From Patescibacteria group bacterium (lineage in GTDB: Bacteria; Patescibacteriota; Microgenomatia; Levybacterales; UBA12049): 64,000 bases of DNA. This document shows, one piece after another, positions 26,116 to 46,603 of the stretch. The stretch's first letter is position 1, and each line of letters opens with the position of its first letter. The DNA lies in assembly GCA_038063415.1 (NCBI GenBank), contig JBBTVD010000006.1:221882-285881 (forward strand), given 5' to 3'. The notes below the pieces were generated by a model. It saw only the letters and a program-made list of their open reading frames with translations. It was not told the DNA's origin and did no database searches. Made by a program: the position numbers and the translations under genes.

Positions 26116-28407
26116 TTATCTAGTTACTAAGCCAAATTCGAGAACTTCTCCACCACAATAGGTGGTAATAAGATCACAAGATTCTTGCAAAGATTTACGT
26201 ACCTGCTCTGGCGTTATCTCATCAATGCCATCTACATTAAGATAGATATTTTTTGTTTGCTCTGTTACCGCTGTTCTCTGGGAATCTCGGAAATTGAAAT
26301 CAATATTGTATCCTCCTTGCTGATCAAAATAGGAAAGTTCTGTTTCCTTGTACTTTGTAGATTCAGTATCGCCAAGTAATAAAATCTCCTCCCCAGCTTT
26401 TGCAAAGCGAAGTTCAGTCGGGAACTGCAGAGTATCTAGATCAAATGCGCCAATCGAGATACGATGCCTCATTACAACTAGATTATATGCATCTACACAA
26501 GTATTGATTGTATATAAATCTTTTCCTTGAGCAACCCGTCGAAGTAACGCTTCAGGGCTGGGTCTGCGTGAATGCCAATCAATCCCCATTGCTTTATAGA
26601 GTTTTCGATAACTTAAGACTTCAAGATATTCTCCAATTTTTTCTGTCGTTAGTCCTTTTAAAGAATCCAACAATTTTTCCTTCTCTTTTTCAAGTTCTGG
26701 GTTTGTTTTACTAATAGTAACTCCCTTAATGACGGCAATACCAATGGAGATTGAAGGATGTTTTTCTTTGACGTTTTTATCTATTGAAAAAATGTTTGAG
26801 GAAATACCAGTCATTCTGGCAAGCGGAGCGCGTCCAGAATCTTTATTTTCGATTCTGGAGTCCTCGCTTTCGCTCGTCCCCAGAATGACGTCATTAAACC
26901 TCTTTTGTACAAAATCTTTCTCAAGAGAGAGGATAAACCAAGCAGCTTTTGGTCCATGGTCTTTGCCAATGAGGGACTGGTAGATTGCTGAAAAAGTTTG
27001 TTTACCATTGAGTCCCAAGGGCTTCCCTAATTCATAAATCTGTGTCTGTAAATCATCAGCATTCCACTCTTTATCTAACTCTGCAACTATTTTTTGTAAA
27101 AGTTCTTTTTGTTCAGCAGAGAGATGTTTTGCTCCCTCTGGCGTATCTTTCTGAACCAAGAATTTTGCAGAATCTGGCGCATACTTTTCTATCCACACTC
27201 TCGCATATTTCGCCCATTCCTCAAGTCCTTCCTCTTTAATTTTGTCTTGCATGTTCGGCATCTGCACCCACTGTGCAAGTACAGAGAAACGAATACTTGG
27301 CGGTTTGACTATATCACCAATTTGTGAGAGTTCAAAAGTACGAGCAAGATCTTCATCCGTTTTATCAAAATATGCTGCTGCTGCTTTTTGATACGCATCA
27401 AATAAATTTGGAATAGTATCTTTCTCCGTTGGATCAAAGTTTGTTTGCTGTTTTATATCCATTTTTACAATCAAAAAACGAACTAACTCTGCCGGTAAAA
27501 TAGAAAGCATATCTCCAGCTGAAAAACCTCTTCCTTTTGAAGAAGACATTTTTTTCCCACCAATCAACATAAATTCATAACTAACAGGATATGGCACAGG
27601 ATAATCAAGCACTTTCTTAGCAATAAGCGAGGTGAGGTCATGCGACCCACCCTTACTCATATGATCCTTTCCAGCACCCTCTACGGTCACACCAATCGCT
27701 TGCCATTTGCAAGCCCATTCTATTTTCCACGGCATTTTTCCTTTAATACCGTTTTCATCACTAAATGGAGAAGTTTTTCCTTCATGTCCACACCCTTTTG
27801 TCCATTCAGTGGCATCAACTGGGCAACGGTAGTGAACAAATTCTCCATCCCAGTCATAGACGCGAGTTGTTGAAACCTTGCCACAGGATTCACAGTAAAC
27901 CTGGAAAGGATACCAGTCAGCAGGCATTTCTTTTTTATACATTTGTTGATAAATACTTCGTATTTCGGAAGCGTTATCCAATGCTTTTTTAACCCCAGTA
28001 TTCATTTTGCCACTCGTATATAAGTCTTTCGTCCAGATGATTTCAGGATATGATCCGATTTGGTTAAAAGCTTTTTTGAATTCTAATGCATAATACTCAG
28101 CATAATCTTTGTAACCCTCAAGAGGTGAAGGAACTCTAAAAAGTGGCATACCAAGATACTTCTCAAATTTCTCTCGAGGGAGATAAGAAGGTATATCATC
28201 CATTGGGTCATGGTTTTCAAATACATAGGTATACTTTGCCGCTACACCTTGATCTTTTAATGCTCGGTAAACCAAATCATGGAAAACCACCCCAAAAAGT
28301 GAACCTACATGAATACGACCCGATGGTGTCTTCATATCGTCAACCCAATAAGGTGTATATTTACCTGAATCAATAATTTCTTTTGCTACTTTATCTGCCC
28401 AGAACAT
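26116..28407 (-). CDS. lysK: Class I lysyl-tRNA synthetase fused to a ~250-aa C-terminal extension carrying a B3/4 (PheT-type) domain
   Basis: The N-terminal 510 aa align to archaeal-type LysRS-I (MFWADKVAKEII..., TPSGRIHVGS, EGAGKDH, KMSSSKG, AWFILSLEKDFVQKRF). The C-terminal part contains NTCVDAYNLVVMRHRISIGAFDLDTLQ, matching the B3/4 core (vDitNyv...g.P.HaFDld). Confidence 0.8.
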   Translation of the reverse strand: MFWADKVAKEIIDSGKYTPYWVDDMKTPSGRIHVGSLFGVVFHDLVYRALKDQGVAAKYTYVFENHDPMDDIPSYLPREKFEKYLGMPLFRVPSPLEGYKDYAEYYALEFKKAFNQIGSYPEIIWTKDLYTSGKMNTGVKKALDNASEIRSIYQQMYKKEMPADWYPFQVYCESCGKVSTTRVYDWDGEFVHYRCPVDATEWTKGCGHEGKTSPFSDENGIKGKMPWKIEWACKWQAIGVTVEGAGKDHMSKGGSHDLTSLIAKKVLDYPVPYPVSYEFMLIGGKKMSSSKGRGFSAGDMLSILPAELVRFLIVKMDIKQQTNFDPTEKDTIPNLFDAYQKAAAAYFDKTDEDLARTFELSQIGDIVKPPSIRFSVLAQWVQMPNMQDKIKEEGLEEWAKYARVWIEKYAPDSAKFLVQKDTPEGAKHLSAEQKELLQKIVAELDKEWNADDLQTQIYELGKPLGLNGKQTFSAIYQSLIGKDHGPKAAWFILSLEKDFVQKRFNDVILGTSESEDSRIENKDSGRAPLARMTGISSNIFSIDKNVKEKHPSISIGIAVIKGVTISKTNPELEKEKEKLLDSLKGLTTEKIGEYLEVLSYRKLYKAMGIDWHSRRPSPEALLRRVAQGKDLYTINTCVDAYNLVVMRHRISIGAFDLDTLQFPTELRFAKAGEEILLLGDTESTKYKETELSYFDQQGGYNIDFNFRDSQRTAVTEQTKNIYLNVDGIDEITPEQVRKSLQESCDLITTYCGGEVLEFGLVTR

Positions 28408-33929: not shown

Positions 33930-35086
33930 TTTGAAAAAACTCCTTTCATTCGTTCCAGTCCTTCTGTTATTTCCTCTTCCGATGCTGCATACGAAAGTCT
34001 GATAAAATTTCTCCCAGCAGATCCAAAAGCAAGCCCTGGAACTGTTACCACATTTGCTTCCTCAATTAACTTTTTGGCAATATGCATGCCATCACCAAAT
34101 CTTGATACGTCAACAAAATAATAAAATGCCCCATGCGATTCTTGAACACTAAGTCCATTAATTCCTTTGAGGAGTTTCCCCATTAGCTTCCTTCGAGTAG
34201 CAAGTTGCTCATGATAAAAAATAAGTTCTTCTTCACATGCTCCTTGCACCACAGGAAGTGCCGCATATTGCGAATCAGTTGGGGCACACACATACGCTGC
34301 CTGCTGGGATTTGACCGCATCTTTGATAAAAAAATCAGGACCGACTAACCAACCAAGTCTTTTCCCTGTTTGACTTGCTTGCTTTGATAACCCATCTATA
34401 ATAATTGCACGGTCTGTATACTCAGCAATTGAATGATGCTTTGCTCCGTCAAAAATACAGGTAGAATAAATCTCATCTGAGAGAAAGAATAATGATGGAT
34501 GATCTGTTGTTTCTTTTGCTAGTATTTTTAATACGTTTTCTGAGGCGACTTGTCCTGTTGGATTAGAAGGAGAGTTAATAACGATAATTTTTGTCTGAGG
34601 AGTTATTTTTTTCAAAAGATCAGCTACATCAACATCAAACCTGTCGGTTAGTGCATAAGTAATTACTTTTGCTCCCCATTTTCCAGGAAGGGTTTTATAG
34701 AGAGGATAAAAAAGTGCAGGAATTAATACTTCATCCCCAGGATTAAGCATTGTTTCAAAGGTAATAAAAAGCCCACCTGTTGAGCCGGAAGTAATAATAA
34801 CGTTCTCACGATTTGCTTCAAAAGAAAACGTGTTTTTGTAATTGCTAGCAATAGCATCACGCAACGCTGGTAAACCCGCATTTGGCGTATAGCCAGTTTT
34901 CCCTTCAGTAATTGCCCGACGATTTGCTTCTTGTGCTTTTTGCGGCATAGGAAACGGTAGCTCCCCTAATCCCAGACTAACTCTGGATAATGTTCCGGTA
35001 TAGGGTGTTTCCATAATTGAACGAATGAGCGATATTGCTGTTTGTGCAATTCGTTCATTCGGTTGGTAATAGTGCTGCATGCTCAT
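33920..35086 (-). CDS. dapC: Class I (AspC-like) aminotransferase, probably N-succinyl-diaminopimelate aminotransferase
   Basis: Fold-type I aminotransferase motifs (NSPSNPTG, the PLP Lys region SKQASQTGKRLG). The assignment as dapC is inferred from its position between dapD and lysA. Confidence 0.65.
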   Translation of the reverse strand: MSMQHYYQPNERIAQTAISLIRSIMETPYTGTLSRVSLGLGELPFPMPQKAQEANRRAITEGKTGYTPNAGLPALRDAIASNYKNTFSFEANRENVIITSGSTGGLFITFETMLNPGDEVLIPALFYPLYKTLPGKWGAKVITYALTDRFDVDVADLLKKITPQTKIIVINSPSNPTGQVASENVLKILAKETTDHPSLFFLSDEIYSTCIFDGAKHHSIAEYTDRAIIIDGLSKQASQTGKRLGWLVGPDFFIKDAVKSQQAAYVCAPTDSQYAALPVVQGACEEELIFYHEQLATRRKLMGKLLKGINGLSVQESHGAFYYFVDVSRFGDGMHIAKKLIEEANVVTVPGLAFGSAGRNFIRLSYAASEEEITEGLERMKGVFSKWQ

Positions 35087-35970
35087 CGCAAAGCCTCCTC
35101 AAGTAGTGTTTTGAGAGCAGTTTTTTCATCTCGATATTTGATAATAACTGGCACTTGGATATGAATACCTTGTGCATCAGCAAATGCATTCTCACCTTTT
35201 GGCCGTGTCCCATTCACAACAACTGCTCCTTCTGGGATTTCAAGAGGCGTACTCCTTGTTGCTCTATACACTTTTTCCTTAACTAAATCATATACAGGTG
35301 TTGCCGAGGTAATATTGACGCCAGGTGTCAGAACAACCCGAGAATGAAGAATAACTCCTTCTGCAATTGAGGTATTAATACCCATAAGCACCTCATCCTC
35401 AACAATACAAGGATTTGCATTTACTGGCTCAAGCACTCCTCCAACTTGCGCACCTGCTGAGATGTGGCATCGCTCCCCAACCTGTGCACAACTTCCAACA
35501 AGCGCATGCGAATCAATCATCGTACCGCTCCCAATGTAGGAGCCAATAGCAATATAACTTGGCGGCATGACAATCACATTTTTGCCAAAATAAACGCCAT
35601 CCCGAACACTCGTCCCACCAGGCACAATACGCAAGTTATCACCAGCAAAATCAAACGAGCGCAACGGTAATGTATCCTTATCTGAAAATTGAAGTGTTTC
35701 TTTTTTGTGAGACATCCTTGTGAGTTCTCCCAAACGCATACAGACCAAGATGCCTTCTTTCACCCAGGCATTTGCTTGCCAGATTCCTTTTGTATTTTTT
35801 TCAGCCGAACGAAGAGATCCCTCGTTGAGCGCTTGAAGAAAGGCTACAACAACAGCGTGAGCAGCAGCAGTACGACGCAATTCTTCGACTGAAAGTGTTG
35901 CTAACGCTATCATTTTTTTGTGTAATTGTTCTTTTCTCATAGTATTAGTATAAACAGACAGCTTCAACAA
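35083..35970 (-). CDS. dapD: Tetrahydrodipicolinate N-succinyltransferase (hexapeptide-repeat)
   Basis: GSLRSAEKNTKGIWQANAWVKEGILVCMR and TMIDSHALVGSCAQVGERCHISAGAQVGGVLEPVNANPCIVED match E. coli DapD closely ([63 protein letters not shown]). Confidence 0.88.
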   Translation of the reverse strand: MLKLSVYTNTMRKEQLHKKMIALATLSVEELRRTAAAHAVVVAFLQALNEGSLRSAEKNTKGIWQANAWVKEGILVCMRLGELTRMSHKKETLQFSDKDTLPLRSFDFAGDNLRIVPGGTSVRDGVYFGKNVIVMPPSYIAIGSYIGSGTMIDSHALVGSCAQVGERCHISAGAQVGGVLEPVNANPCIVEDEVLMGINTSIAEGVILHSRVVLTPGVNITSATPVYDLVKEKVYRATRSTPLEIPEGAVVVNGTRPKGENAFADAQGIHIQVPVIIKYRDEKTALKTLLEEALR

Positions 35971-38988: not shown

Positions 38989-40788
38989 CTAGGACTGTAT
39001 TTCGGCTTCAGAAACCAGATTCTCAGGTAAACGGAAAATCCCTTCATCAAGCCTTTTTTGATCAAGGAAATGAGAGATAAACCCAACAGAGCGGGAAAGC
39101 ACAAAAAGAGCGTTAAAGAATTCACTTGCCACCAGTCGCTTCAGTTCACGATCAGAGACTCCTTCTTTTTCTGACAAAAGGTCCAGAAGCACCGCAGCAA
39201 TCGCGCCATCAACATTAAGGATGAGATTACCTTTTTTTGCTGTAGTAATCTTTTCAACAGAGAGTGCAAAGTGAGTAAAGCGTTTATGTGTTAACGATTT
39301 GGCAAACTGTTCGATTTCTTTGACCCGTGGATCGGGAGCGTCACTACGATACTTTTTGTGACCAATACCGGAGATGTATTGTCTTTTACTTGCAAACTCC
39401 TCGACAAAATTAGCAGGGTCTTTTTCTGAGCTAACACCTGTCAGCCAATTGGCTGCAGCTTGGTTAATTGCTCCACCAAATCGTGGCCCAATAGTAAGCA
39501 GTCCAGCAGAAAGTGAGGAAACCAGATCGCGTCCTGCTCTTGCCGTCACAATCGTATTCATCGCTCCAGAAACGTACGGCCCATGATCAGCAAGAAGCCG
39601 TAGAACAAAATCCGTAAAGTTCTCGAGTTCTTTGGAATGGATCTTCTTGCCCAAGAACATCGACATGACCAGGGTTGCAAACGACTCTTGTTTAACAATG
39701 GTCAATAAATCTTCTCCCAAGAGTTGCGGTTGTCCGTTCTTCACTCCAGAAATACTGGTGGTGATAAGCGCCCGTTGACGATTAATAAGGCTGTCGATAT
39801 CAAAGGTATAAGCTAACCCTTCAGGCACAAAGTCTTCAGGAATTGCTTGAATTTGACTCAGAAACTCAGCGTATGAATCAGCAACCTGTGCTCCTGATTG
39901 ACGAAGCATGATTCGTTTCCCGCGAGCACTTTCTTCTTGCTTTGATGCCATAGCTTTTGCATGACCAAACTGCGGGGGAGTGACAAACATTTCAGCAACG
40001 GTTCCAGCGATATAACAAATAACTTTCTTCGTTATTTTTTTTGCTTTAAGTAGATCAGCAAGTAGCGCTTCATCCGTCCCTCCGAGTTCACCAAAATACA
40101 CGATTGTCTTGGTCTGTGGGTCTTTTTCTGCTGCCAGAAAAGCCATCTCAGGCGTCGTCATCGGGAAGCGCTCACCACCAAATGACAATGAGAAAGAAAT
40201 TCGCTTGCCATAATGGGTAACCGTATTAATAATTTCATTGGTCATTCCACCAGATGAAGATAACACCGCCACTGATCCTGGAGTAAAAAGATGTGCAGTT
40301 GTTAGTTGTCGCACGTCTACCCCACCAATGGCTCCAAGCTTCATTACCGAGGGAAGAATAATACCGATACTCGCAGGCCCAGTCAGAAAGATTTTTTTCT
40401 TTTGCGCTTGCGCGTAGAGTGCAATAGCATGTTGTTCTGGGACATTTTCGGCGAAAACAATCCCACCAATCAAAGAGGGAAGAGTAGTAAGTGCTTCTTC
40501 CGTTGAGGAAAAGGTTCTTCTCCCCGATGAGAGATTAATAAAAAAGTTTGCTTCCTCTCGAATCTTTTTGGGGACATCACTGACTGATGGGAAGACAGGG
40601 ATGAGCACTTCACGCTTTCCCCAGAAGTATCGTTCGTAATTGCGTCCTGCTGCGATAATTGCTCTGATACTTGGTTCCTTTTTCCCGGATACATAATCAA
40701 AATCAAGCATTGACTGCATGATTGCAGGATAGCTACCAAGAGCAATTACTTGCACCTGTGTTTTTCGTAATGTTTGAATGTCTAACAT
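38989..40788 (-). CDS. aclA: ATP-citrate lyase alpha-type subunit (CoA-binding plus CoA-ligase domains, fused to a citrate-synthase-like C-terminal domain)
   Basis: Phospho-His region PPQFGHAKAMAS. C-terminal segments HGPYVSGAMNTIVTARAGRDLVSSLSAGLLTIGPRFGGA, IGHKKYRSDAPDPRV, LILNVDG and GFISHFLDQKRLDEGIFRLP mirror the ACLY citrate-synthase-like domain. The start is set at MLDIQ (40788), 1 nt after the aclB stop. ORF-track start is 40920. Confidence 0.85.
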   Translation of the reverse strand: MLDIQTLRKTQVQVIALGSYPAIMQSMLDFDYVSGKKEPSIRAIIAAGRNYERYFWGKREVLIPVFPSVSDVPKKIREEANFFINLSSGRRTFSSTEEALTTLPSLIGGIVFAENVPEQHAIALYAQAQKKKIFLTGPASIGIILPSVMKLGAIGGVDVRQLTTAHLFTPGSVAVLSSSGGMTNEIINTVTHYGKRISFSLSFGGERFPMTTPEMAFLAAEKDPQTKTIVYFGELGGTDEALLADLLKAKKITKKVICYIAGTVAEMFVTPPQFGHAKAMASKQEESARGKRIMLRQSGAQVADSYAEFLSQIQAIPEDFVPEGLAYTFDIDSLINRQRALITTSISGVKNGQPQLLGEDLLTIVKQESFATLVMSMFLGKKIHSKELENFTDFVLRLLADHGPYVSGAMNTIVTARAGRDLVSSLSAGLLTIGPRFGGAINQAAANWLTGVSSEKDPANFVEEFASKRQYISGIGHKKYRSDAPDPRVKEIEQFAKSLTHKRFTHFALSVEKITTAKKGNLILNVDGAIAAVLLDLLSEKEGVSDRELKRLVASEFFNALFVLSRSVGFISHFLDQKRLDEGIFRLPENLVSEAEIQS

Positions 40789-40789
40789 A

Positions 40790-42025
40790 TTAGATTGTTT
40801 TAATTGCTTTACCAATAATGTCTGGCAGGGGAGTGGTCTGGTCTCCAACAAACCCCAATAGTTTTTCTTTTTCAAGAAATGCTTCCATCTGGGCAAGTCC
40901 TTCTTCTTGATGTGGTCCACCTCGTCTGACGAATACTTGAATATGCTGCTTATGCAATGCTCCTGCTACTTCTTGTAATGCTCGTATCAGTCCACTAAAG
41001 GTAATTCGAACATCTGAAAAATTGGCAACGCCTCCAGCAATGATGAGTACTTTCTTTTTTGCTTTTGATCTCAAAAGGAGACTTACCAAATTTTTGGTAT
41101 ATAAATATACTTCTTCAGCATTGGGGTTACCACTGTATTCCCCATAGTTGGCAAGTTGTTTACCATAACCCAAATTATATCCTTCATCAGCAAGCACAAT
41201 ACTTGCCCCTCCACCGGAAAGAAGCATAAAGATGCCGCCATCCAAGTTGAGCATCTCAAGACTAAATGACGCTTGGCTTTTTTCGGACAATGCGTCTATG
41301 TTGTTTTCTTCTGTCGTTTTCTCTCTGGTCTGCGCTGCTCGGAAATCTGTTTCTGTCCAGGCATGGTGGACAAAAAAGAGTCCCGAACTATCAACTTCAG
41401 CCGCAACATCAAGCAGTGAGATGTTAGTTCCTTCCACTACCAATGGATTTATTTCAAAAAAAGAGAAATGATACTCATTAAAGGTAGAAATAAGTTTTTT
41501 TAAAAATTCTTTTGGCAAATTTAAAGCCTTTATAACTTTGTCATTCTCGCGAAGGCGGGAATCCAGCCCTGCTAAAGCACGATCCATAGATTCCGGCTCG
41601 GAGGCCGGAATGACAGGAATAAGCAGTTGATTAATTGAATTCCGATTCTCTTCAATATCGATCCCTCCCTTTACTGAAAATAACACTTCGATACCTTCAC
41701 GCGTCCGAGAAAGTGAAAGATACTTTTCTGATTCTTGTGAATGGGGGAGAAATGCTTCAATAATGACATGCGAGTATCCCTTGGCAAACAGTTTCTTTGC
41801 TTCCTTCTCTACATCAATTGACGAAACCTTCAGCGCGACAAGCCCTTGTTTCATGCGCTTTTTGACTCCTTCATCGACTTTTACGACATACGTCTGTTTC
41901 GGATCAAGTTTTTCAAGTATTTTTCTATCATCAGTTTTTGTAAAACTAATCCCCTGGTAGGGGAGACCGAGTTCTTTTGTGAGGATTCCTTTTGCACTGT
42001 ATTCACTTATTTTTTTTCGTGCCAT
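40790..42025 (-). CDS. aclB: ATP-citrate lyase beta-type subunit (ATP-grasp, SucC-like, corresponding to the ACLY N-terminal half)
   Basis: [41 protein letters not shown] and [15 protein letters not shown] correspond to the ACLY motifs [41 protein letters not shown] and IFVRRGGPNYQEGL. Confidence 0.85.
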   Translation of the reverse strand: [411 protein letters not shown]

Positions 42026-42052: not shown

Positions 42053-43810
42053 TTAATACTCTTCAAGAGTTGAGGTGTCTCCAACTTCTTGTCCGAGCTC
42101 TTTTGCTTTAAGGATTCTCCGCATAATCTTTCCCGAACGAGTCTTGGGGAGCTTGTCAATAAAAGCAATCTCTCGAGGATAGGCATGCCCTGCAAGATGT
42201 TTTTTGACATGTATCTTAAGTTTTTCTTTCAGTTCATCGTTTTGTTCAACACCTGGTTTTATGACAACAAATGCTTTGATAATCTCCCCTCTGACTGGAT
42301 CTGGCTTGCCAATAACTCCTGCTTCAACCACGTCAGGATATTCCACAAGGGCACTCTCCACTTCAAATGGTCCGACTCGCTCCCCGGCGGTATTGATCAC
42401 ATCATCAGCTCTCCCGATAAACCAGAAGTAGCCATCTTTATCTTGGTATGCCTTATCACCCGAAAGATACCATTGACCATTAAAGTAAGAATCAAACTTT
42501 GCTTTATTGTGCCAGATTGTTTTCATGAGAGAAGAAACAGTGCTTGCTTTGAGTGCCAGATGCCCTTCCTCCCCTACTGGTACTTCCTTACCCTCATCAT
42601 CGATAATAGCAGCTTTTATTCCTGGTAACGGTTTCCCCATTGAACCAGGCTTTATGTCCAGAGCAGGATAGTTGGTAATACTAATCCCCCCCAGTTCTGT
42701 CTGCCACCACGTATCATGAAATGCTAGCCCGTACGTCTCAAGACCCCACCAGATGGCTTCAGGATTGAGTGGCTCCCCCACACTGCAAAGATGTCGCAAA
42801 GAAGAAAGGTTAAACCCTTTGACATCAACCGTTGCTCCCATGAGCAGTCGAATTGCTGTGGGAGCGGTATACCAGACGGTTACTTTGTATTCTGCAAGAA
42901 GCGTATGCCAATTCTCAGGATTAAACCTTCCTTCATAAAGAACGGATGTGCTTCCAAGCCCCATGGGGCCAAGCACGCCGTACACAACCCCTGTTACCCA
43001 GCCAAGATCTGCCGTACACCAATACACGTCATCTTCATGGAGATCGAGCACATATTTGGTTGTTACCATAGCTTGCAGAACATCATAATGACTGTGGACA
43101 ACTCCTTTTGGCTTGCCTGTTGTTCCTGAAGTATAAAGCATGTACGAGTAGTCTTCTTTTTGCATATGGGCGATTGCAAAGTTGTCGCTAGCTTTTTTCA
43201 TCTCTTCTTCGTAAGAAATGATGTTCTCTCCTACCGGCTTAGTTACTGACCCCCGACCAATAATAATCACTTTCTCAAGATGAGGCAGGTCTTTCCAGAT
43301 CTTTTCGATTCGAGGATAAAGAGAAGCTGTTGTTATCACGACTTTGGCTTCACTATCGGAAAGTCGGTCGGAAAGCGCCATCTCCTGAAATGCGGAGAAA
43401 AGTACTCCCGCAATCGCTCCTACTTTGAGCGTCCCGAGGAAGGCAACTACACGCTCTGGAATCGCTGGAACAAAGAGAAAGACTCTATCGCCTTTGTGGA
43501 CATCATACGAGGTAAGTACATTGGCAAACTTGTCCGTTAGTTTCTTAAGCTTTGCATACGAATATACTTCTTTGTCACCATCTGCACTTTCAAAAAGTAT
43601 TGCAGCTTTATTTTTGTTCTTTCCTTTGGCATGTCGATCAACACAATTGTACGCGATGTTTAGTGTCCCATCAGGAAAGAACTCTATCAGCTCTTTCTCT
43701 GCTTTTTGCCACGTAAACACTTTATATGTTTTTGTGTAAGTAGTTATATTTGGCGCTACAGGAACATTCTGTATCGCTTTTTTAATGATAGTTCCTTTCT
43801 GTGTGTTCAT
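42053..43810 (-). CDS. acs: AMP-forming acetyl-CoA synthetase family (acetate-CoA ligase-like)
   Basis: AMP-binding motif YTSGTTGKPKGVVHSH, then WWQTELGG, YLSGDKAYQDKDGYFWFIGRADDVIN and the C-terminal lysine region. 585 aa. Its start abuts the xfp stop. Confidence 0.8.
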   Translation of the reverse strand: MNTQKGTIIKKAIQNVPVAPNITTYTKTYKVFTWQKAEKELIEFFPDGTLNIAYNCVDRHAKGKNKNKAAILFESADGDKEVYSYAKLKKLTDKFANVLTSYDVHKGDRVFLFVPAIPERVVAFLGTLKVGAIAGVLFSAFQEMALSDRLSDSEAKVVITTASLYPRIEKIWKDLPHLEKVIIIGRGSVTKPVGENIISYEEEMKKASDNFAIAHMQKEDYSYMLYTSGTTGKPKGVVHSHYDVLQAMVTTKYVLDLHEDDVYWCTADLGWVTGVVYGVLGPMGLGSTSVLYEGRFNPENWHTLLAEYKVTVWYTAPTAIRLLMGATVDVKGFNLSSLRHLCSVGEPLNPEAIWWGLETYGLAFHDTWWQTELGGISITNYPALDIKPGSMGKPLPGIKAAIIDDEGKEVPVGEEGHLALKASTVSSLMKTIWHNKAKFDSYFNGQWYLSGDKAYQDKDGYFWFIGRADDVINTAGERVGPFEVESALVEYPDVVEAGVIGKPDPVRGEIIKAFVVIKPGVEQNDELKEKLKIHVKKHLAGHAYPREIAFIDKLPKTRSGKIMRRILKAKELGQEVGDTSTLEEY

Positions 43811-46603
43811 TTATTTCTCCTCTTTTTTCATTTCTTTGTATGCATCCATAATACAAAAATTGGTGACTAGTGACAAACCATAATCCTGTGCAAACGCTAC
43901 GGCCTCTGGGCTACTCACGCCATCTTGCAGCCACACCATACGGATATCCCCTCGTTCGACCACTTCCTGCAAATGGGGAATTACTTCTGTCGGCCTGCGA
44001 AAGATGTCAACGATATCTATGGGAATTTCTTTGGGTATAGCTTGTAATGTTGCATAAGACTTCTCACCAAGGATAGTAGTAAGTTTTGGGTTCACTGGAA
44101 TGATTCTATAGCCTTTTCCCTGGAAATATTTTGCGACTCGATAACTGTGTCTTTCAGGATTATCCGACAAACCAATCACCGCAATGGTACGAGCATACTT
44201 CAATACATCCTCATAATTCACATCACTTCCGATTTCTTTCATTGAACGTTTTCCTGCCCATTGCCAGTTCTCAATCGCGCCAGGATCTGCTCCAACTTTG
44301 GTGATGTAAATAAAGTGATCCTTGAGAGCTTTCTTATACTTTTTAATCAGTGTCGCAGCTTTTGATGGCATGATTGCATGTTCATGCACAGCTTTTTCAA
44401 GTGTTTCTATCGCAAGGTGATACCTGTCTGTTTCGTTACGAACCTGCATATCAAAGGGCGTGGTCGTTCCTCCTTCTTCACGATAGCCATGGATACTAAA
44501 CCGTTCAGGGTGCTTCACCGTAAAGAGCATACTTTTAAGTACTTCAGGATATCCATGGAAGGTCACAATGACGGACTTATCAACCGTCAAGTATTTCTCT
44601 GCATCAGGAATTTGTGGCTGGAAATGATCGGTTAGCGCTGATGCAGCTTGGAGTCGAAGCATATTGACGAAACGAATACGTACTTCTGGAGCATCTTGTT
44701 TGACCAGTTCAATCGCAGCAAGAGCCTCTTTGGTAACATAATCACCAATGCCCACAAGCACCACATGCGGATTATCATCACTGGCAAAGTCCCACGTTGC
44801 AATCCCTTTTTTGAGCGCCTGTTTTGCTTGAGGATACGTTAACCAACGAGGTTCAGGAGTTTTGCCAGCAACAACAATATTCATTTGATTTTTAGACGCC
44901 ATTGTCTCATCAAGGGTAGCCAGCATACTATTGTCATCAACGGGGAAATATACCTTGATAAAATCATTTTGTTTTTCAAGCATGCCAGAGATAAAACTAG
45001 GGTTTTGGTGGGAGTACCCATTGTGCTCCTGTCGCCAGGCTGTTGAGGTCAAAAAATAATTAATCGAAGGGATGTCTTCTCGCCAAGGCATCTTGCGGAC
45101 ATATTTCAAAAACTTCTGATACATATGACTCATACTTGAGAAAATCTGGGAGAAAGCTTCATACGTCGTAAAGACCGCATGACGACCAGTTAAGACATAC
45201 CCCTGGGCAAGTCCATGCATCGTGTGTTCTGAAAGCATTTCCATCACACGACCATCGGTAGTGATATCTTTGTCTCCTGGATCATGCGGCCAGACAAATC
45301 CCCGCGCTGTTTCTGTAAACACAGCATCAAGCCGATTAGAATAGGTTTCATCAGGAGACATAAGACGGAAGTTCTTTTGTTTTTTGTTGAGGGCAAAGAT
45401 TTCTTTGAGATATGTTCCTGCCATACGCATTGCATTTGAGTGAATCTCACCGGGTGTTTCAAGTGGCTTTGCGAGCTTCTTGCCATCAGGTAAGGTAAGT
45501 GGTGTATAATTTTTGCCAAACATGTGCGGATTATCTCCCAATCGGAGATCCCCTGTTGGAATGCTATCCGTTACTTCTTTTGCAAAACCTTTTGTACGAT
45601 CAAAGAGTTCTTCAAAATGGTACGAGCGCAACCACTCTTCCAAGGCCTGCAGTTCTTGCTCATCACCTCGAACATTGGGCATAACCACTTGATGGGCTTG
45701 TATTGTTCCCTCAATGGCTTTCCCTCGAAGCTTTTTGATCGTCGTCCAGCCTTTGGGAGTCTGAAGAATAATCATTGGGAATCGAGGTCTGACGGCATCT
45801 TTTTTCTTGGCTGACTCCTGAATTGCACGAATACGCTGATAACACGTCTCCATCGTCTCTGCCATTTCTTCATAAATATTTTCTCCTCCGACAAAAAATG
45901 GTTCGTACCCATAGCCAGTGAAGAGTGCTTTTAGTTCTGTTTTACTCATCCGACCAAAGATTGTTGGACCTGAAATTTTGTAGCCATTGACATGCAGGAT
46001 TGGAAGGACTGCTCCATTGGTTGCTGGATTAATGAGTTTATTGGTATGCCATGCAGCGGCAATCGCGCCAGTCTCAGCTTCTCCATCGCCAATCAAGCAA
46101 ACTGCCAGAAGATCAGGATTATCAAGCACTGCTCCGTAGGCTGAAGCAAGTGAATAGCCAAGTTCTCCACCTTCAAGAATTAACCCAGGAGTTTCGGGAC
46201 TACAATGACTGGAAAAGCCATACGGCCAGGCAAACATTTTGGAAACGTATTTGATACCTTTCTCGTCAAGCGTTGCCTGTGGGTAGTATTTTTTAAGCGT
46301 ACCTTCAAGAAATAAATTTGCCTGGAGACCCGGCATCCCATGCCCTGGACCAAGGACAAAAACTGATGACTGATTGTGTCTTTTGACAAGCGCATTGGTG
46401 TGAGCATAGACAAAGTTTATTCCAGGACAAGTTCCCCAATGACCAAAAAGTTTTGGTTTGATATCAGATGACTTAAGCGGACGCTCGAGAAGAACGTTCT
46501 CCTGAAGATAGATTTGGGTAACCGTCAAATAGTTTGCGGCTCGTACATATGTTTTGATTTGCTCGATAGTTGTGTTCATAAGTAGTATAGATTTACTTCC
46601 CAA
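43811..46603 (-). CDS. xfp: Xylulose-5-P/fructose-6-P phosphoketolase fused to a C-terminal CoA-binding domain (YccU/PF13380-like)
   Basis: Xfp motifs GHWGTCPGINFVYAH, GPGHGMPG and TPP-binding GGELGYSLASAYGAVLDNPDLLAVCLIGDGEAETG. The extra ~140 aa at the C-terminus are ARTIAVIGLSDNPERHSYRVAKYFQGKGYRIIPVNPK...DIVDIFRRPTEVIPHLQEVVERGDIRMVWLQDGV, which is the CoA-binding Rossmann-like domain pattern. Confidence 0.85.
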   Translation of the reverse strand: MGSKSILLMNTTIEQIKTYVRAANYLTVTQIYLQENVLLERPLKSSDIKPKLFGHWGTCPGINFVYAHTNALVKRHNQSSVFVLGPGHGMPGLQANLFLEGTLKKYYPQATLDEKGIKYVSKMFAWPYGFSSHCSPETPGLILEGGELGYSLASAYGAVLDNPDLLAVCLIGDGEAETGAIAAAWHTNKLINPATNGAVLPILHVNGYKISGPTIFGRMSKTELKALFTGYGYEPFFVGGENIYEEMAETMETCYQRIRAIQESAKKKDAVRPRFPMIILQTPKGWTTIKKLRGKAIEGTIQAHQVVMPNVRGDEQELQALEEWLRSYHFEELFDRTKGFAKEVTDSIPTGDLRLGDNPHMFGKNYTPLTLPDGKKLAKPLETPGEIHSNAMRMAGTYLKEIFALNKKQKNFRLMSPDETYSNRLDAVFTETARGFVWPHDPGDKDITTDGRVMEMLSEHTMHGLAQGYVLTGRHAVFTTYEAFSQIFSSMSHMYQKFLKYVRKMPWREDIPSINYFLTSTAWRQEHNGYSHQNPSFISGMLEKQNDFIKVYFPVDDNSMLATLDETMASKNQMNIVVAGKTPEPRWLTYPQAKQALKKGIATWDFASDDNPHVVLVGIGDYVTKEALAAIELVKQDAPEVRIRFVNMLRLQAASALTDHFQPQIPDAEKYLTVDKSVIVTFHGYPEVLKSMLFTVKHPERFSIHGYREEGGTTTPFDMQVRNETDRYHLAIETLEKAVHEHAIMPSKAATLIKKYKKALKDHFIYITKVGADPGAIENWQWAGKRSMKEIGSDVNYEDVLKYARTIAVIGLSDNPERHSYRVAKYFQGKGYRIIPVNPKLTTILGEKSYATLQAIPKEIPIDIVDIFRRPTEVIPHLQEVVERGDIRMVWLQDGVSSPEAVAFAQDYGLSLVTNFCIMDAYKEMKKEEK

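What the first reader, a model, noticed from the sequence alone, without database searches (positions are those of the whole stretch)
43811..46603. Phosphoketolase with a C-terminal CoA-binding (YccU/PF13380-like) domain fusion
The first ~790 aa are a canonical Xfp phosphoketolase (GHWGTCPGINFVYAH, GPGHGMPG, TPP motif GDGEAETG). An additional ~140 aa at the C-terminus (encoded 43811-~44230) matches the stand-alone CoA-binding Rossmann domain (TIAVIGLSDNPERHSYRVAKYFQGKGYRIIPVNPK...IVDIFRRP...RMVWLQDGV). I am not aware of this architecture being described. Phosphoketolase releases acetyl-phosphate. A covalently attached CoA-binding module suggests substrate channelling of the acetyl unit toward CoA (a Pta-like role), or regulation by the CoA/acetyl-CoA pool. 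No pta or ackA gene is present in the window.
Basis: partly seen in the sequence, partly recalled or inferred. Interest (0 to 1): 0.7.

Follow-up and report, generated by a model that had tools for sequence, protein, structure and literature searches.

The report
Phosphoketolase fused to CoA-binding domain
A sugar-splitting enzyme (phosphoketolase) of an ultra-small Patescibacteria bacterium carries a tethered coenzyme-A-binding domain and is always encoded next to acetyl-CoA synthetase instead of the usual acetate kinase. This points to an undescribed route from sugar phosphates to acetyl-CoA.

Summary
ORF 43811-46603 (-) encodes XFP_N-XFP-XFP_C plus a C-terminal CoA_binding_2 (PF13380) domain (E 3e-36). 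It is not a frameshift artefact. More than 120 full-length protein clusters (69-100% identical) and 49 independent loci carry the same fusion. The CoA domain is as conserved as the enzyme (72% vs 73% pairwise identity). The linker is variable in sequence, constant in length and predicted disordered. The phosphoketolase active site is canonical.

The stop codon abuts the start of an AMP-forming acetate--CoA ligase (acs), followed by ATP-citrate-lyase genes. Acs is linked in all 23 fused loci with adequate flanks (35 of 49 overall). Acetate kinase is never present (0 of 49). Unfused relatives have ackA directly downstream in 4 of 5 cases. Close stand-alone copies of the domain sit directly after acs in four loci.

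My best reading is that the tethered domain presents CoA so that the acetyl unit is passed to CoA, substituting for Pta (about 0.35). CoA/acetyl-CoA sensing is nearly as likely (about 0.3). I found no paper describing the fusion. I rate it a new variant of a known kind, interest about 0.6.

The parts
43811..46603 (-). Fusion gene xfp-CoAbd. It is 930 aa from the TTG at 46603, but the probable true start is the ATG at 46579, giving 922 aa. The stop is TAA at 43813-43811.
   Evidence: ORF list. The identical 922-aa protein P0121 is called on three contigs. The start region was read.
45515..46576 (-). XFP_N domain (residues 10-363). It contains His55, His88, His133 and Gly146 (equivalent to Bifidobacterium His64, His97, His142 and Gly155) and the ThDP motif GDGEAETG...N starting at residue 172.
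   Evidence: Pfam PF09364 at 466 bits. Residue mapping comes from the 8IO6 alignment. These residues are invariant in 121 fused sequences.
44897..45421 (-). XFP middle (Pyr) domain (residues 395-569). It contains Glu419, Ser422, Glu459, Tyr481 and WRQEHNGYSHQ (Gln525, His527, Asn528, His532).
   Evidence: Pfam PF03894 at 226 bits.
44258..44863 (-). XFP_C domain (residues 581-782), ending in the conserved IENWQW.
   Evidence: Pfam PF09363 at 185 bits; conservation.
44192..44257 (-). Linker (residues 783-804). Its sequence varies (31% mean pairwise identity) but its length is constant, and it is predicted to be disordered.
   Evidence: gap fraction 0.003. AlphaFold2 gives pLDDT below 50 for residues 785-795, the only such segment.
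43847..44191 (-). CoA_binding_2 (PF13380, YccU-type Rossmann) domain, residues 805-919. Invariant family residues are G811, S813, S820, P836, N838, P839, D863, D866, F868, R869, W891, G895, N915 and C917; R818 (98%) and H819 (97%) are nearly invariant.
   Evidence: Pfam at 124.8 bits. PDB homologues 2DUW, 1IUK and 2D59. Conservation. pLDDT is 89-95 over residues 801-860.
43853..43855 (-). Codon of Cys917 (N-x-C-I motif). The equivalent Cys126 of B. subtilis YneT forms a mixed disulfide with CoA.
   Evidence: The Cys is invariant in 47 of 47 fused and 91 of 91 ungapped stand-alone homologues (88 generic, 3 acs-adjacent). YneT CoAlation is reported in PMC8127865.
43817..43822 (-). GAGGAG Shine-Dalgarno sequence for acs. 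It lies inside the last codons of the fusion gene, 6 nt before the acs ATG, which suggests translational coupling.
   Evidence: Sequence read.
42053..43810 (-). acs: AMP-forming acetate--CoA ligase, 585 aa, with the catalytic/acetylatable lysine motif PKTRSGKIMRR.
   Evidence: NCBIfam NF003313 at 812 bits against a cutoff of 729, plus Pfam AMP-binding and AMP-binding_C. Linkage to the fusion gene across loci is shown.
38989..42025 (-). Two-subunit ATP-citrate-lyase-like genes. The aclB-like gene is 40790-42025. The aclA-like gene is 38989-40788 (599 aa, as called on L001); its ORF runs up to a GTG at 40920 (643 aa). They are part of the same gene string in this genome only.
   Evidence: Pfam Citrate_bind, Citrate_synth_N and ATP-grasp_2 for one; Ligase_CoA, Succ_CoA_lig and Citrate_synt for the other. 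They were found only in the window, L001 and L002 among all loci.

Best explanation
SHOWN. This is a real, vertically conserved gene fusion found in a tight clade of Patescibacteria, mostly Saccharimonadia-type genomes. A phosphoketolase with a fully canonical ThDP active site carries a folded YccU-type CoA-binding Rossmann domain on a disordered tether of about 20 residues and fixed length. The gene is linked, often by translational coupling, to an AMP-forming acetate--CoA ligase. Unfused xfp genes are instead followed by acetate kinase.

INFERRED, favoured mechanism. The tethered domain holds CoA, with its thiol next to the invariant Cys917, close to the enzyme that releases acetyl-phosphate. 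The acetyl group of acetyl-phosphate (or of the 2-acetyl-ThDP intermediate) is then passed to CoA. [quoted passage not shown] The fusion would thereby substitute for Pta and yield acetyl-CoA in organisms reported to lack PDH and PFOR. The co-transcribed Acs then interconverts acetyl-CoA and acetate. It could run in reverse (acetyl-CoA + AMP + PPi -> acetate + ATP, taking over the energy-conserving role of the lost Ack), or forward to salvage acetate.
For: 1. The fusion is real and under selection. All 120 best hits are 915-949 aa and carry PF13380 plus the XFP domains. The domain is 72% identical pairwise against 73% for the enzyme body, and the linker is 31% identical with constant length.
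2. The context switches with the fusion. Acs lies on the same strand within 2.5 kb in 35 of 49 fused loci, and in 23 of 23 loci with at least 2 kb on both sides. AckA is present in 0 of 49. AckA lies directly downstream of unfused xfp in 4 of 5 sampled relatives.
3. The partner is kept by function, not by orthology. Some loci have the PRK04319-type Acs and others the TIGR02188 AcsA type.
4. Close stand-alone copies of the domain (59-71% identical) follow acs within 3-16 nt in L132, L134, L135 and L140. The three with enough sequence for the tree (L134, L135, L140) nest with the fused domains in a neighbour-joining tree. In contrast, 77 generic YccU loci show no acs, xfp or ack linkage.
5. The Cys adjacent to the CoA thiol is invariant and is the CoAlated residue in YneT (PMC8127865).
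6. The disordered tether (pLDDT below 50 for residues 785-795) fits a swinging module.
7. NCBIfam aligns the domain to domain 1 of the ACD alpha subunit (TIGR02717 positions 5-83).
8. Saccharibacteria are reported to lack PDH and PFOR (PMC6031116).
Against: No catalytic activity is known for any PF13380 protein. From general knowledge, E. coli has YccU, yet pta mutants are not rescued, so the stand-alone domain is not an efficient Pta.

All Xfp active-site residues are canonical in the window protein, including those implicated in acceptor binding. There is therefore no sequence sign of a changed acceptor here.

I could not get coordinates of the model, so I do not know whether the tether lets CoA reach the active-site funnel.

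I could not test whether pta or ackA is absent elsewhere in these genomes. Comparing contig lengths of AckA and fused-Xfp clusters was inconclusive. GNAT genes near two loci fit a regulatory reading better.
Confidence: 0.35

Rival explanations
1. Ligand sensor. The tethered domain binds CoA and/or acetyl-CoA and tunes phosphoketolase activity to the state of the CoA pool, either by end-product feedback or by cosubstrate feed-forward. Acetyl-phosphate is still the only product and reaches acetyl-CoA through acetate (via an Ack or hydrolase encoded elsewhere) and the adjacent Acs.
For: The Xfp active site is canonical. The ACD-like N-terminal region of Pat/PatZ acetyltransferases, which contains PF13380, is regarded as regulatory and controls Acs (general knowledge; reviewed in PMC8556138, listed but not read). 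GNAT genes lie next to the stand-alone domain in L140 and between xfp-CoAbd and acs in L096. No catalysis is known for PF13380. Phosphoketolases are known to be allosterically regulated; for example, the cyanobacterial enzyme has been solved with AMPPNP bound (8IO8).
Against: It does not explain why ackA is absent from all 49 fused loci while acs is always linked; an extra unlinked enzyme must be assumed. A disordered, sequence-variable tether is not typical of a rigid allosteric module. Family-wide invariance of a Cys next to the ligand thiol suggests thiol chemistry rather than mere binding.
Confidence: 0.3
2. The module works with Acs, not with Xfp. It would act as a CoA-donating or regulatory partner of Acs, a 'mini-Pat' when combined with a GNAT. 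Its fusion to xfp would only secure co-expression and stoichiometry within the xfp-acs operon.
For: Acs is the constant partner. Stand-alone copies of the domain follow acs directly, with no xfp in view, in L132 and L140. In L140 the next gene is a weak GNAT hit at 23.3 bits against a gathering score of 20.7. The window Acs has the acetylatable PKTRSGK lysine motif.
Against: Across 121 sequences the domain stays fused to Xfp with a constant linker length. A purely Acs-directed protein would be expected to fuse to Acs or stay free. Only short contigs show the stand-alone form, so an xfp nearby cannot be excluded. A GNAT is seen in only 2 loci.
Confidence: 0.15
3. Redox or CoAlation switch. The invariant Cys917 forms a mixed disulfide with CoA under oxidising conditions, and this switches or protects the enzyme.
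For: B. subtilis YneT is CoAlated at the homologous Cys (PMC8127865). The Cys is invariant in all homologues examined.
Against: This does not explain the specific acs/ackA context switch. The Cys is a family-wide feature and not specific to the fusion.
Confidence: 0.08
4. Artefact. A sequencing frameshift or assembly chimera joined two separate genes.
For: None found. Three of the 49 loci (L110, L122, L127) show frameshifts, but these lie inside the Xfp body and not at the junction.
Against: The identical protein occurs on 3-4 independently assembled contigs. There are 120 full-length clusters from NCBI, JGI, ENA and Logan, and 42 metagenome loci with a complete in-frame junction.
Confidence: 0.01

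Closest known systems
Canonical Xfp phosphoketolases (Bifidobacterium 3AI7/3AHC/8IO6, Synechococcus 8IO8, 'Ca. Saccharibacterium' Pk 9CD3)
   Same: The three-domain ThDP enzyme is the same. It is 43-44% identical to 8IO8 and 9CD3, with TM-score 0.90-0.93 normalised to the target. All listed active-site residues are present.
   Different: All solved and characterised enzymes end after XFP_C, at about 790-825 aa. This one adds a linker of about 20 aa and a CoA-binding domain of about 115 aa. Its gene partner is acs instead of ackA or pta.
Stand-alone PF13380 CoA-binding proteins (E. coli YccU, B. subtilis YneT, T. thermophilus TT1466 1IUK, P. horikoshii PH1109 2D59/2D5A, Klebsiella 2DUW)
   Same: Same domain, with E 3e-24 to 1e-13. 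It has the same glycine-rich loop, the IPVNP, DxVDxFR and WxQxG motifs, and the invariant Cys.
   Different: Those are free proteins of about 140 aa with unknown function and no detectable linkage to acs, xfp or ack. Here the domain is fused to an enzyme, or in the closest relatives encoded right after acs.
CoA-binding domain 1 of ADP-forming acetyl-CoA synthetase (ACD) and the succinyl-CoA synthetase alpha subunit
   Same: The Rossmann domain is homologous (TIGR02717 positions 5-83, NF045494; 2CSU). In those enzymes it positions CoA for the reaction acyl-phosphate + CoA <-> acyl-CoA + Pi, which is exactly the step needed after phosphoketolase.
   Different: The CoA-ligase/phosphohistidine domain and the ATP-grasp domain are absent. 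The acyl-phosphate would come from a ThDP enzyme instead.
Pat/PatZ-type protein acetyltransferases that regulate Acs
   Same: They contain PF13380 in an ACD-like region, are coupled to acetyl-CoA sensing, and act on Acs. Here the domain is always linked to acs, and a GNAT neighbours it in 2 loci.
   Different: There is no GNAT, Succ_CoA_lig or ATP-grasp_5 domain in the protein. The fusion partner is a catabolic enzyme.
Classical phosphoketolase pathway modules xfp-ackA (and xfp + pta)
   Same: The first step is the same. Unfused relatives from Patescibacteria and other uncultured bacteria keep xfp-ackA operons, and one is described for a soil Saccharibacterium (PMC6031116).
   Different: In the fused clade ackA is absent from the neighbourhood, and acs is present in its place.

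Membership tests
Phosphoketolase (Xfp, EC 4.1.2.9/4.1.2.22) | XFP_N, XFP and XFP_C domains all above the curated thresholds | tested here: met
   Pfam gives 466, 226 and 185 bits against gathering scores of about 22-24. NCBIfam NF003616 gives 913 bits against a cutoff of 777.
Phosphoketolase (Xfp, EC 4.1.2.9/4.1.2.22) | ThDP-binding motif and catalytic residues (Bifidobacterium His64, His97, His142, Gly155, His320, Gln321, Ser440, Glu479, Tyr501, Gln546, His548, Asn549, His553) | tested here: met
   All are present in the window protein as H55, H88, H133, G146, H304, Q305, S422, E459, Y481, Q525, H527, N528 and H532. The residue list comes from PMC10547157.
Phosphoketolase (Xfp, EC 4.1.2.9/4.1.2.22) | Fold like solved phosphoketolases | tested here: met
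   AlphaFold2 model with pLDDT 88.6. Foldseek against 8IO8 gives E 1e-82 and TM 0.93 normalised to the target.
Phosphoketolase (Xfp, EC 4.1.2.9/4.1.2.22) | Phosphorolytic cleavage of X5P/F6P to acetyl-phosphate | not testable with these tools
   This needs an enzyme assay.
CoA_binding_2 / YccU family (PF13380) | HMM match above the gathering score, and homology to solved CoA-binding proteins | tested here: met
   124.8 bits against 22.8. 2DUW at 3e-24, 1IUK at 5e-22, and 2D59 (whose CoA complexes are 2D5A and 2E6U) at 8e-20.
CoA_binding_2 / YccU family (PF13380) | Family signature residues, including the Cys next to the CoA thiol | tested here: met
   G811, S813, S820, N838-P839, D863, D866, F868, R869, W891, G895, N915 and C917 are 100% conserved in the fused clade; R818 is 98% conserved. 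The Cys is invariant in 138 of 138 ungapped homologues.
CoA_binding_2 / YccU family (PF13380) | Actual binding of CoA or acyl-CoA | not testable with these tools
   This needs ITC, a thermal shift assay or a co-crystal.
Phosphotransacetylase (Pta, PF01515 PTA_PTB) | Homology to the PTA_PTB catalytic domain | tested here: not met
   No PTA_PTB match appears in the Pfam or NCBIfam scans of the protein. Any Pta-like role would be by analogy, not by membership.
NDP-forming acyl-CoA synthetase superfamily (ACD/SCS) | CoA-ligase domain with a phosphohistidine loop, plus an ATP-grasp domain | tested here: not met
   Only the domain-1 equivalent is present (TIGR02717 positions 5-83 of 447, at 33 bits against a cutoff of 567).
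Pat/PatZ protein acetyltransferase | GNAT catalytic domain in the same protein | tested here: not met
   There is no Acetyltransf hit in the fusion protein. Separate GNAT genes are present in only 2 neighbourhoods.
Acetate--CoA ligase, AMP-forming (the partner gene 42053-43810) | Equivalog HMM above the cutoff, and the catalytic Lys motif | tested here: met
   NF003313 at 812 bits against 729. The PKTRSGK motif is in the translation.

The most novel reading that the evidence does not exclude
The fusion is a CoA-acetylating phosphoketolase. CoA held on the tethered domain, possibly through an S-acetyl intermediate on the invariant Cys917, takes the acetyl group from acetyl-phosphate or directly from 2-acetyl-ThDP. 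Sugar phosphates would then be converted to acetyl-CoA without Pta. By extension, the large orphan YccU/PF13380 family would be thiol-relay modules for acyl-phosphate-to-CoA transfer. Together with Acs running in reverse, this would be a previously unrecognised phosphoketolase pathway for both acetyl-CoA supply and ATP formation in Patescibacteria.
Probability: 0.2. Interest if true: 0.85.

Novelty: new variant of a known kind. Interest (0 to 1): 0.6.

Why it matters
Saccharibacteria and related Patescibacteria are reported to lack pyruvate dehydrogenase and PFOR (PMC6031116). Yet they need acetyl-CoA, for example for cell-wall precursor synthesis. Where it comes from is unclear.

A phosphoketolase physically and genetically coupled to CoA and to Acs offers a concrete, testable answer. 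It defines a clade-wide rewiring of the phosphoketolase pathway, from xfp-ackA to xfp::CoAbd-acs.

If the domain really hands acetyl groups to CoA, it would assign a first function to the widespread orphan YccU/PF13380 family. It would also give a natural single-protein route from sugar phosphates, or from glycolaldehyde in synthetic C1 pathways such as the one in PMC11326285 that currently needs a separate Pta, to acetyl-CoA.

If it is a sensor, it would be a new type of allosteric control of phosphoketolase.

Tried and rejected
1. Frameshift or assembly artefact: rejected.

2. A search with only the C-terminal 351 aa returned only fragments of up to 615 aa and underestimated the family. The full-length query was needed.

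3. The 50%-identity representative library listed no full-length fused representative among its best 150 (only a 265-aa fragment, P0022). The nearest full-length representative is an unfused 795-aa protein at 54% identity. This shows only that the fused clade is tight. It gave no count.

Only 3 fused loci came back, so no taxonomic census was possible. The 77 stand-alone loci did serve as a negative control for acs linkage.

5. I tried to test co-occurrence with ackA by comparing contig lengths of the top 120 AckA clusters with those of the fused-Xfp clusters. There was no overlap, but only 120 of 4381 hits are listed, so this is inconclusive. No Pta query was available.

6. The listing of cluster members added no taxon names.

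7. I looked for clade-specific substitutions in the Xfp body against 16 unfused representatives and found 12 positions, for example M494 where unfused proteins have Gln in 16 of 16. These cannot be interpreted without coordinates.

8. The Foldseek search with the whole model matched only the Xfp body, and the tools return no coordinates. The position of the CoA domain relative to the active site could therefore not be measured.

9. Rfam on the window gave no hits. Promoter and terminator scans were at background level.

10. ACL as a conserved part of the module: rejected, because the ACL genes follow acs only in this genome.
Full report
**1. Observation**

The window contains one uninterrupted ORF at 43811..46603 on the minus strand, 930 aa from a TTG. 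The family consensus and the identical public protein (P0121 = MEK7571112.1, 'MAG: phosphoketolase [Patescibacteria group bacterium]', 922 aa) begin at the in-frame ATG at 46579.

Pfam finds four domains:
- XFP_N, residues 10-363
- XFP, residues 395-569
- XFP_C, residues 581-782
- CoA_binding_2 (PF13380), residues 805-919, at 124.8 bits against a gathering score of 22.8, E 3e-36

NCBIfam places the first 785 residues in a phosphoketolase subfamily, at 913 bits against a cutoff of 777. The last 142 residues match solved stand-alone CoA-binding proteins by sequence: 2DUW 3e-24, 1IUK, and 2D59 with its CoA complexes.

**2. Not an artefact, and not rare**

With the full-length query, all 120 best protein clusters (69-100% identity, 915-949 aa, from NCBI, JGI, ENA and Logan) carry PF13380 together with the XFP domains. 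Where named, they are called simply 'phosphoketolase'. The taxon labels are Patescibacteria, Saccharimonadia/Saccharimonadales and Levyibacteriota, with a few bins labelled Dormibacteraeota or Limnocylindrales. A more divergent fused copy is in a Daviesbacteria bin (P0024).

I aligned 121 full-length sequences:
- The CoA domain is as conserved as the enzyme: 72% against 73% mean pairwise identity.
- The 22-residue linker is only 31% identical, but its length is essentially constant (gap fraction 0.003).

In the library clustered at 50% identity, no full-length fused representative appears among the best 150; only a 265-aa fragment covering the junction (P0022) is listed. The nearest full-length representative is an unfused 795-aa protein at 54% identity. 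The fused proteins therefore form one tight clade, probably from a single fusion event.

**3. The enzyme part is canonical**

I mapped the window protein onto the Bifidobacterium numbering through the 8IO6 alignment, using the active-site list of PMC10547157. His64, His97, His142, Gly155, His320, Gln321, Glu437, Ser440, Glu479, Tyr501, Gln546, His548, Asn549 and His553 are all present. Most are invariant in the 121 fused sequences.

AlphaFold2 gives mean pLDDT 88.6 and pTM 0.88. The only segment below pLDDT 50 is residues 785-795, which lies in the linker. The CoA domain is a confident alpha/beta domain. Foldseek matches the body to solved phosphoketolases, including the unfused 'Ca. Saccharibacterium' enzyme 9CD3. 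The anatomy is thus a normal phosphoketolase with a folded CoA-binding Rossmann domain on a flexible tether of fixed length.

**4.

The TAA of the fusion gene (43813-43811) is followed immediately by the ATG of a 585-aa gene (42053-43810). A GAGGAG sequence lies 6 nt upstream, inside the fusion ORF. That gene is an AMP-forming acetate--CoA ligase (NF003313, 812 bits against a cutoff of 729).

The next two genes are ATP-citrate-lyase-like subunits. Then come murB and a lysine/diaminopimelate gene string. None of the window ORFs of at least 150 aa that I annotated by Pfam (overlapping, evidently spurious ones excluded) is an acetate kinase or a phosphotransacetylase.

**5. Comparative context**

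I collected 49 independent fused loci: the window; L004 and L005 (from contigs of 1.14 and 1.9 Mb); L007-L009; L089; and 42 metagenome loci with a complete in-frame junction.

| Position of acs relative to the fused gene (same strand) | Loci |
|---|---|
| Directly downstream | 19 |
| Downstream, after 0.2-2.4 kb | 7 |
| Directly upstream | 7 |
| Upstream, 0.3-0.8 kb | 2 |
| Total within 2.5 kb | 35 of 49 |

- All 23 loci with at least 2 kb of sequence on both sides have acs.
- The 14 loci without acs all lack sequence on at least one flank.
- Acetate kinase is found in 0 of 49.

By contrast, the unfused relatives have acetate kinase directly downstream in 4 of 5 cases: P0241, P0243, P0245 and P0029, but not P0242. 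This matches the xfp-ack pair described for a soil Saccharibacterium (PMC6031116).

The Acs partner is of two different types. Some loci have the PRK04319 type and others the TIGR02188 AcsA type. It is therefore the activity that is retained, not one orthologue.

In four short loci (L132, L134, L135, L140) a stand-alone CoA_binding_2 gene follows acs within 3-16 nt. It is 59-71% identical to the fused domain. The three copies long enough for the tree (L134, L135, L140) group with the fused domains in a neighbour-joining tree. The 77 generic stand-alone YccU loci (39-54% identity) show no linkage to acs, xfp, ack or ACL. The ACL genes follow acs only in this genome.

**6. The domain itself**

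All family signature residues are kept. The Cys of the N-x-C-I motif (Cys917) is invariant in 47 of 47 fused copies and 91 of 91 ungapped stand-alone copies (88 generic, 3 acs-adjacent). In B. subtilis YneT the homologous Cys126 carries a CoA mixed disulfide (PMC8127865). This Cys therefore sits next to the thiol of bound CoA. No function is known for any stand-alone member.

**7. Mechanism**

What is shown: the fusion, its conservation, the flexible tether, the canonical active site, and the acs-for-ackA context switch.

What is inferred, and what I favour at 0.35: the domain presents CoA to capture the acetyl group made by the enzyme.
- It makes xfp::CoAbd plus acs a complete module without a missing enzyme. 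Acetyl-CoA could be used for biosynthesis. Acs could also run in reverse to make ATP from AMP + PPi (known for Syntrophus aciditrophicus; I cite this from general knowledge and did not read the paper), replacing Ack.

Evidence against:
- No catalysis is known for PF13380.
- E. coli YccU does not replace Pta (general knowledge).
- The window protein shows no change in the acceptor pocket.
- I could test neither the geometry nor the genome-wide absence of pta and ackA.

The main rival, at 0.3, is a CoA/acetyl-CoA sensor controlling Xfp. It is supported by the Pat/PatZ precedent and by GNAT genes in two neighbourhoods. It leaves the loss of ackA unexplained. Lesser rivals are a module that really serves Acs (0.15), a CoAlation redox switch (0.08), and an artefact (0.01 or less).

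**8. Comparison with known systems**

The protein is a member of the phosphoketolase family and of PF13380. Every sequence and fold criterion I could test was met. It is not a member of the Pta, ACD/SCS or Pat families, because their defining catalytic domains are absent. Any Pta-like behaviour would be analogous, not homologous.

**9. Novelty**

Six full-text searches combining phosphoketolase with CoA-binding terms or with Saccharibacteria, Patescibacteria or CPR found no paper that mentions the fusion. The paper behind 9CD3 used an unfused enzyme plus a separate Pta (PMC11326285). The architecture is visible in public annotations but appears unremarked. I rate it a new variant of a known kind.

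**10. Verdict**

The mechanism is unproven. Interest is 0.6. The most novel reading still allowed is a CoA-acetylating phosphoketolase in which the YccU domain acts as a thiol-relay module. I give that a probability of about 0.2, and it would deserve an interest of about 0.85 if true.

Noticed in passing
window 38989-42025 (-): There are two-subunit ATP-citrate-lyase-like genes in a Patescibacteria genome, directly after acs. The aclB-like gene has ATP-grasp and Citrate_bind domains; the aclA-like gene has CoA-ligase and citrate-synthase-like domains. They are followed by murB and an aspartate-to-DAP/lysine gene string, which suggests citrate could supply oxaloacetate plus acetyl-CoA. They are not conserved next to the fusion in other loci.
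   Followed up: partly
window 26116-28407 (-): A class I lysyl-tRNA synthetase (tRNA-synt_1f, residues 2-362) carries a C-terminal B3_4 domain (residues 600-752), the domain known from the PheRS beta subunit. This is an unusual architecture.
   Followed up: no
fused family, Bifidobacterium positions 548/549 (window H527/N528); e.g. P0142, P0157, P0188: A subclade of 25 of the 121 fused proteins has WRQERDG instead of WRQEHNG, that is His548Arg plus Asn549Asp in the pocket implicated in acceptor binding. Asn549 is conserved in 54 of 61 diverse unfused representatives. This may indicate altered acceptor use. The window protein is canonical.
   Followed up: partly
L140 260-3148; L132, L134, L135: In these loci acs is followed within 3-16 nt by a stand-alone CoA_binding_2 gene (133 aa in L140) that is closely related to the fused domain. 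In L140 the next gene is a weak GNAT acetyltransferase hit. Together this resembles a split, minimal Pat-like arrangement.
   Followed up: partly
L091 2224-2898, L095, L096, L124, L133; L090 5494-6468, L007 7106-8089, L137; L007 8040-8579, L133, L137: When xfp::CoAbd and acs are separated, the intervening genes recur and lie on the opposite strand. They are a HAD-family phosphatase, a PP2C-like phosphatase, and a zinc-ribbon NUDIX hydrolase (NudC-like). A plain NUDIX gene (172 aa) also lies downstream of the Daviesbacteria fusion in L089.
   Followed up: partly
L101 5660-7411, L119 987-2723, also L008, L113, L121: In these fused loci the linked Acs is the TIGR02188 AcsA type (40-44% identical to the window Acs) rather than the PRK04319 type. 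The partner has been replaced by a non-orthologous enzyme of the same activity.
   Followed up: yes
L108 3034-3333: A second, N-terminally truncated copy of the CoA-binding domain (99 aa, 68% identical) lies about 0.5 kb downstream of the fused gene.
   Followed up: no
L110, L122, L127: In these loci the Xfp body is split into two frames by a frameshift inside the enzyme, not at the junction. This is either an assembly error or a pseudogene.
   Followed up: no
window 35083-35970 (-): The DapD here scores as the N-succinyltransferase equivalog (NF008808, 273 bits against a cutoff of 204), so it would need succinyl-CoA. Saccharimonadia are reported to lack a TCA cycle, so the source of succinyl-CoA is unclear (PMC12592800).
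   Followed up: no
L005 (contig of 1.9 Mb) and names: One fused copy lies on a 1.9-Mb contig together with Crp, a PAS histidine kinase, a transposase and cellulase genes. Some family members are labelled Dormibacteraeota or Limnocylindrales. Either there are unusually large Saccharimonadia-type genomes, or bins were mislabelled, or the gene was transferred outside Patescibacteria.
   Followed up: no
window 46579-46603 (-): The mechanical ORF starts at TTG 46603. The in-frame ATG at 46579 fits the family N-terminus, and an AGGAGG sequence lies at 46626-46621. The annotated start is therefore probably 8 codons shorter than the finding's coordinates.
   Followed up: yes
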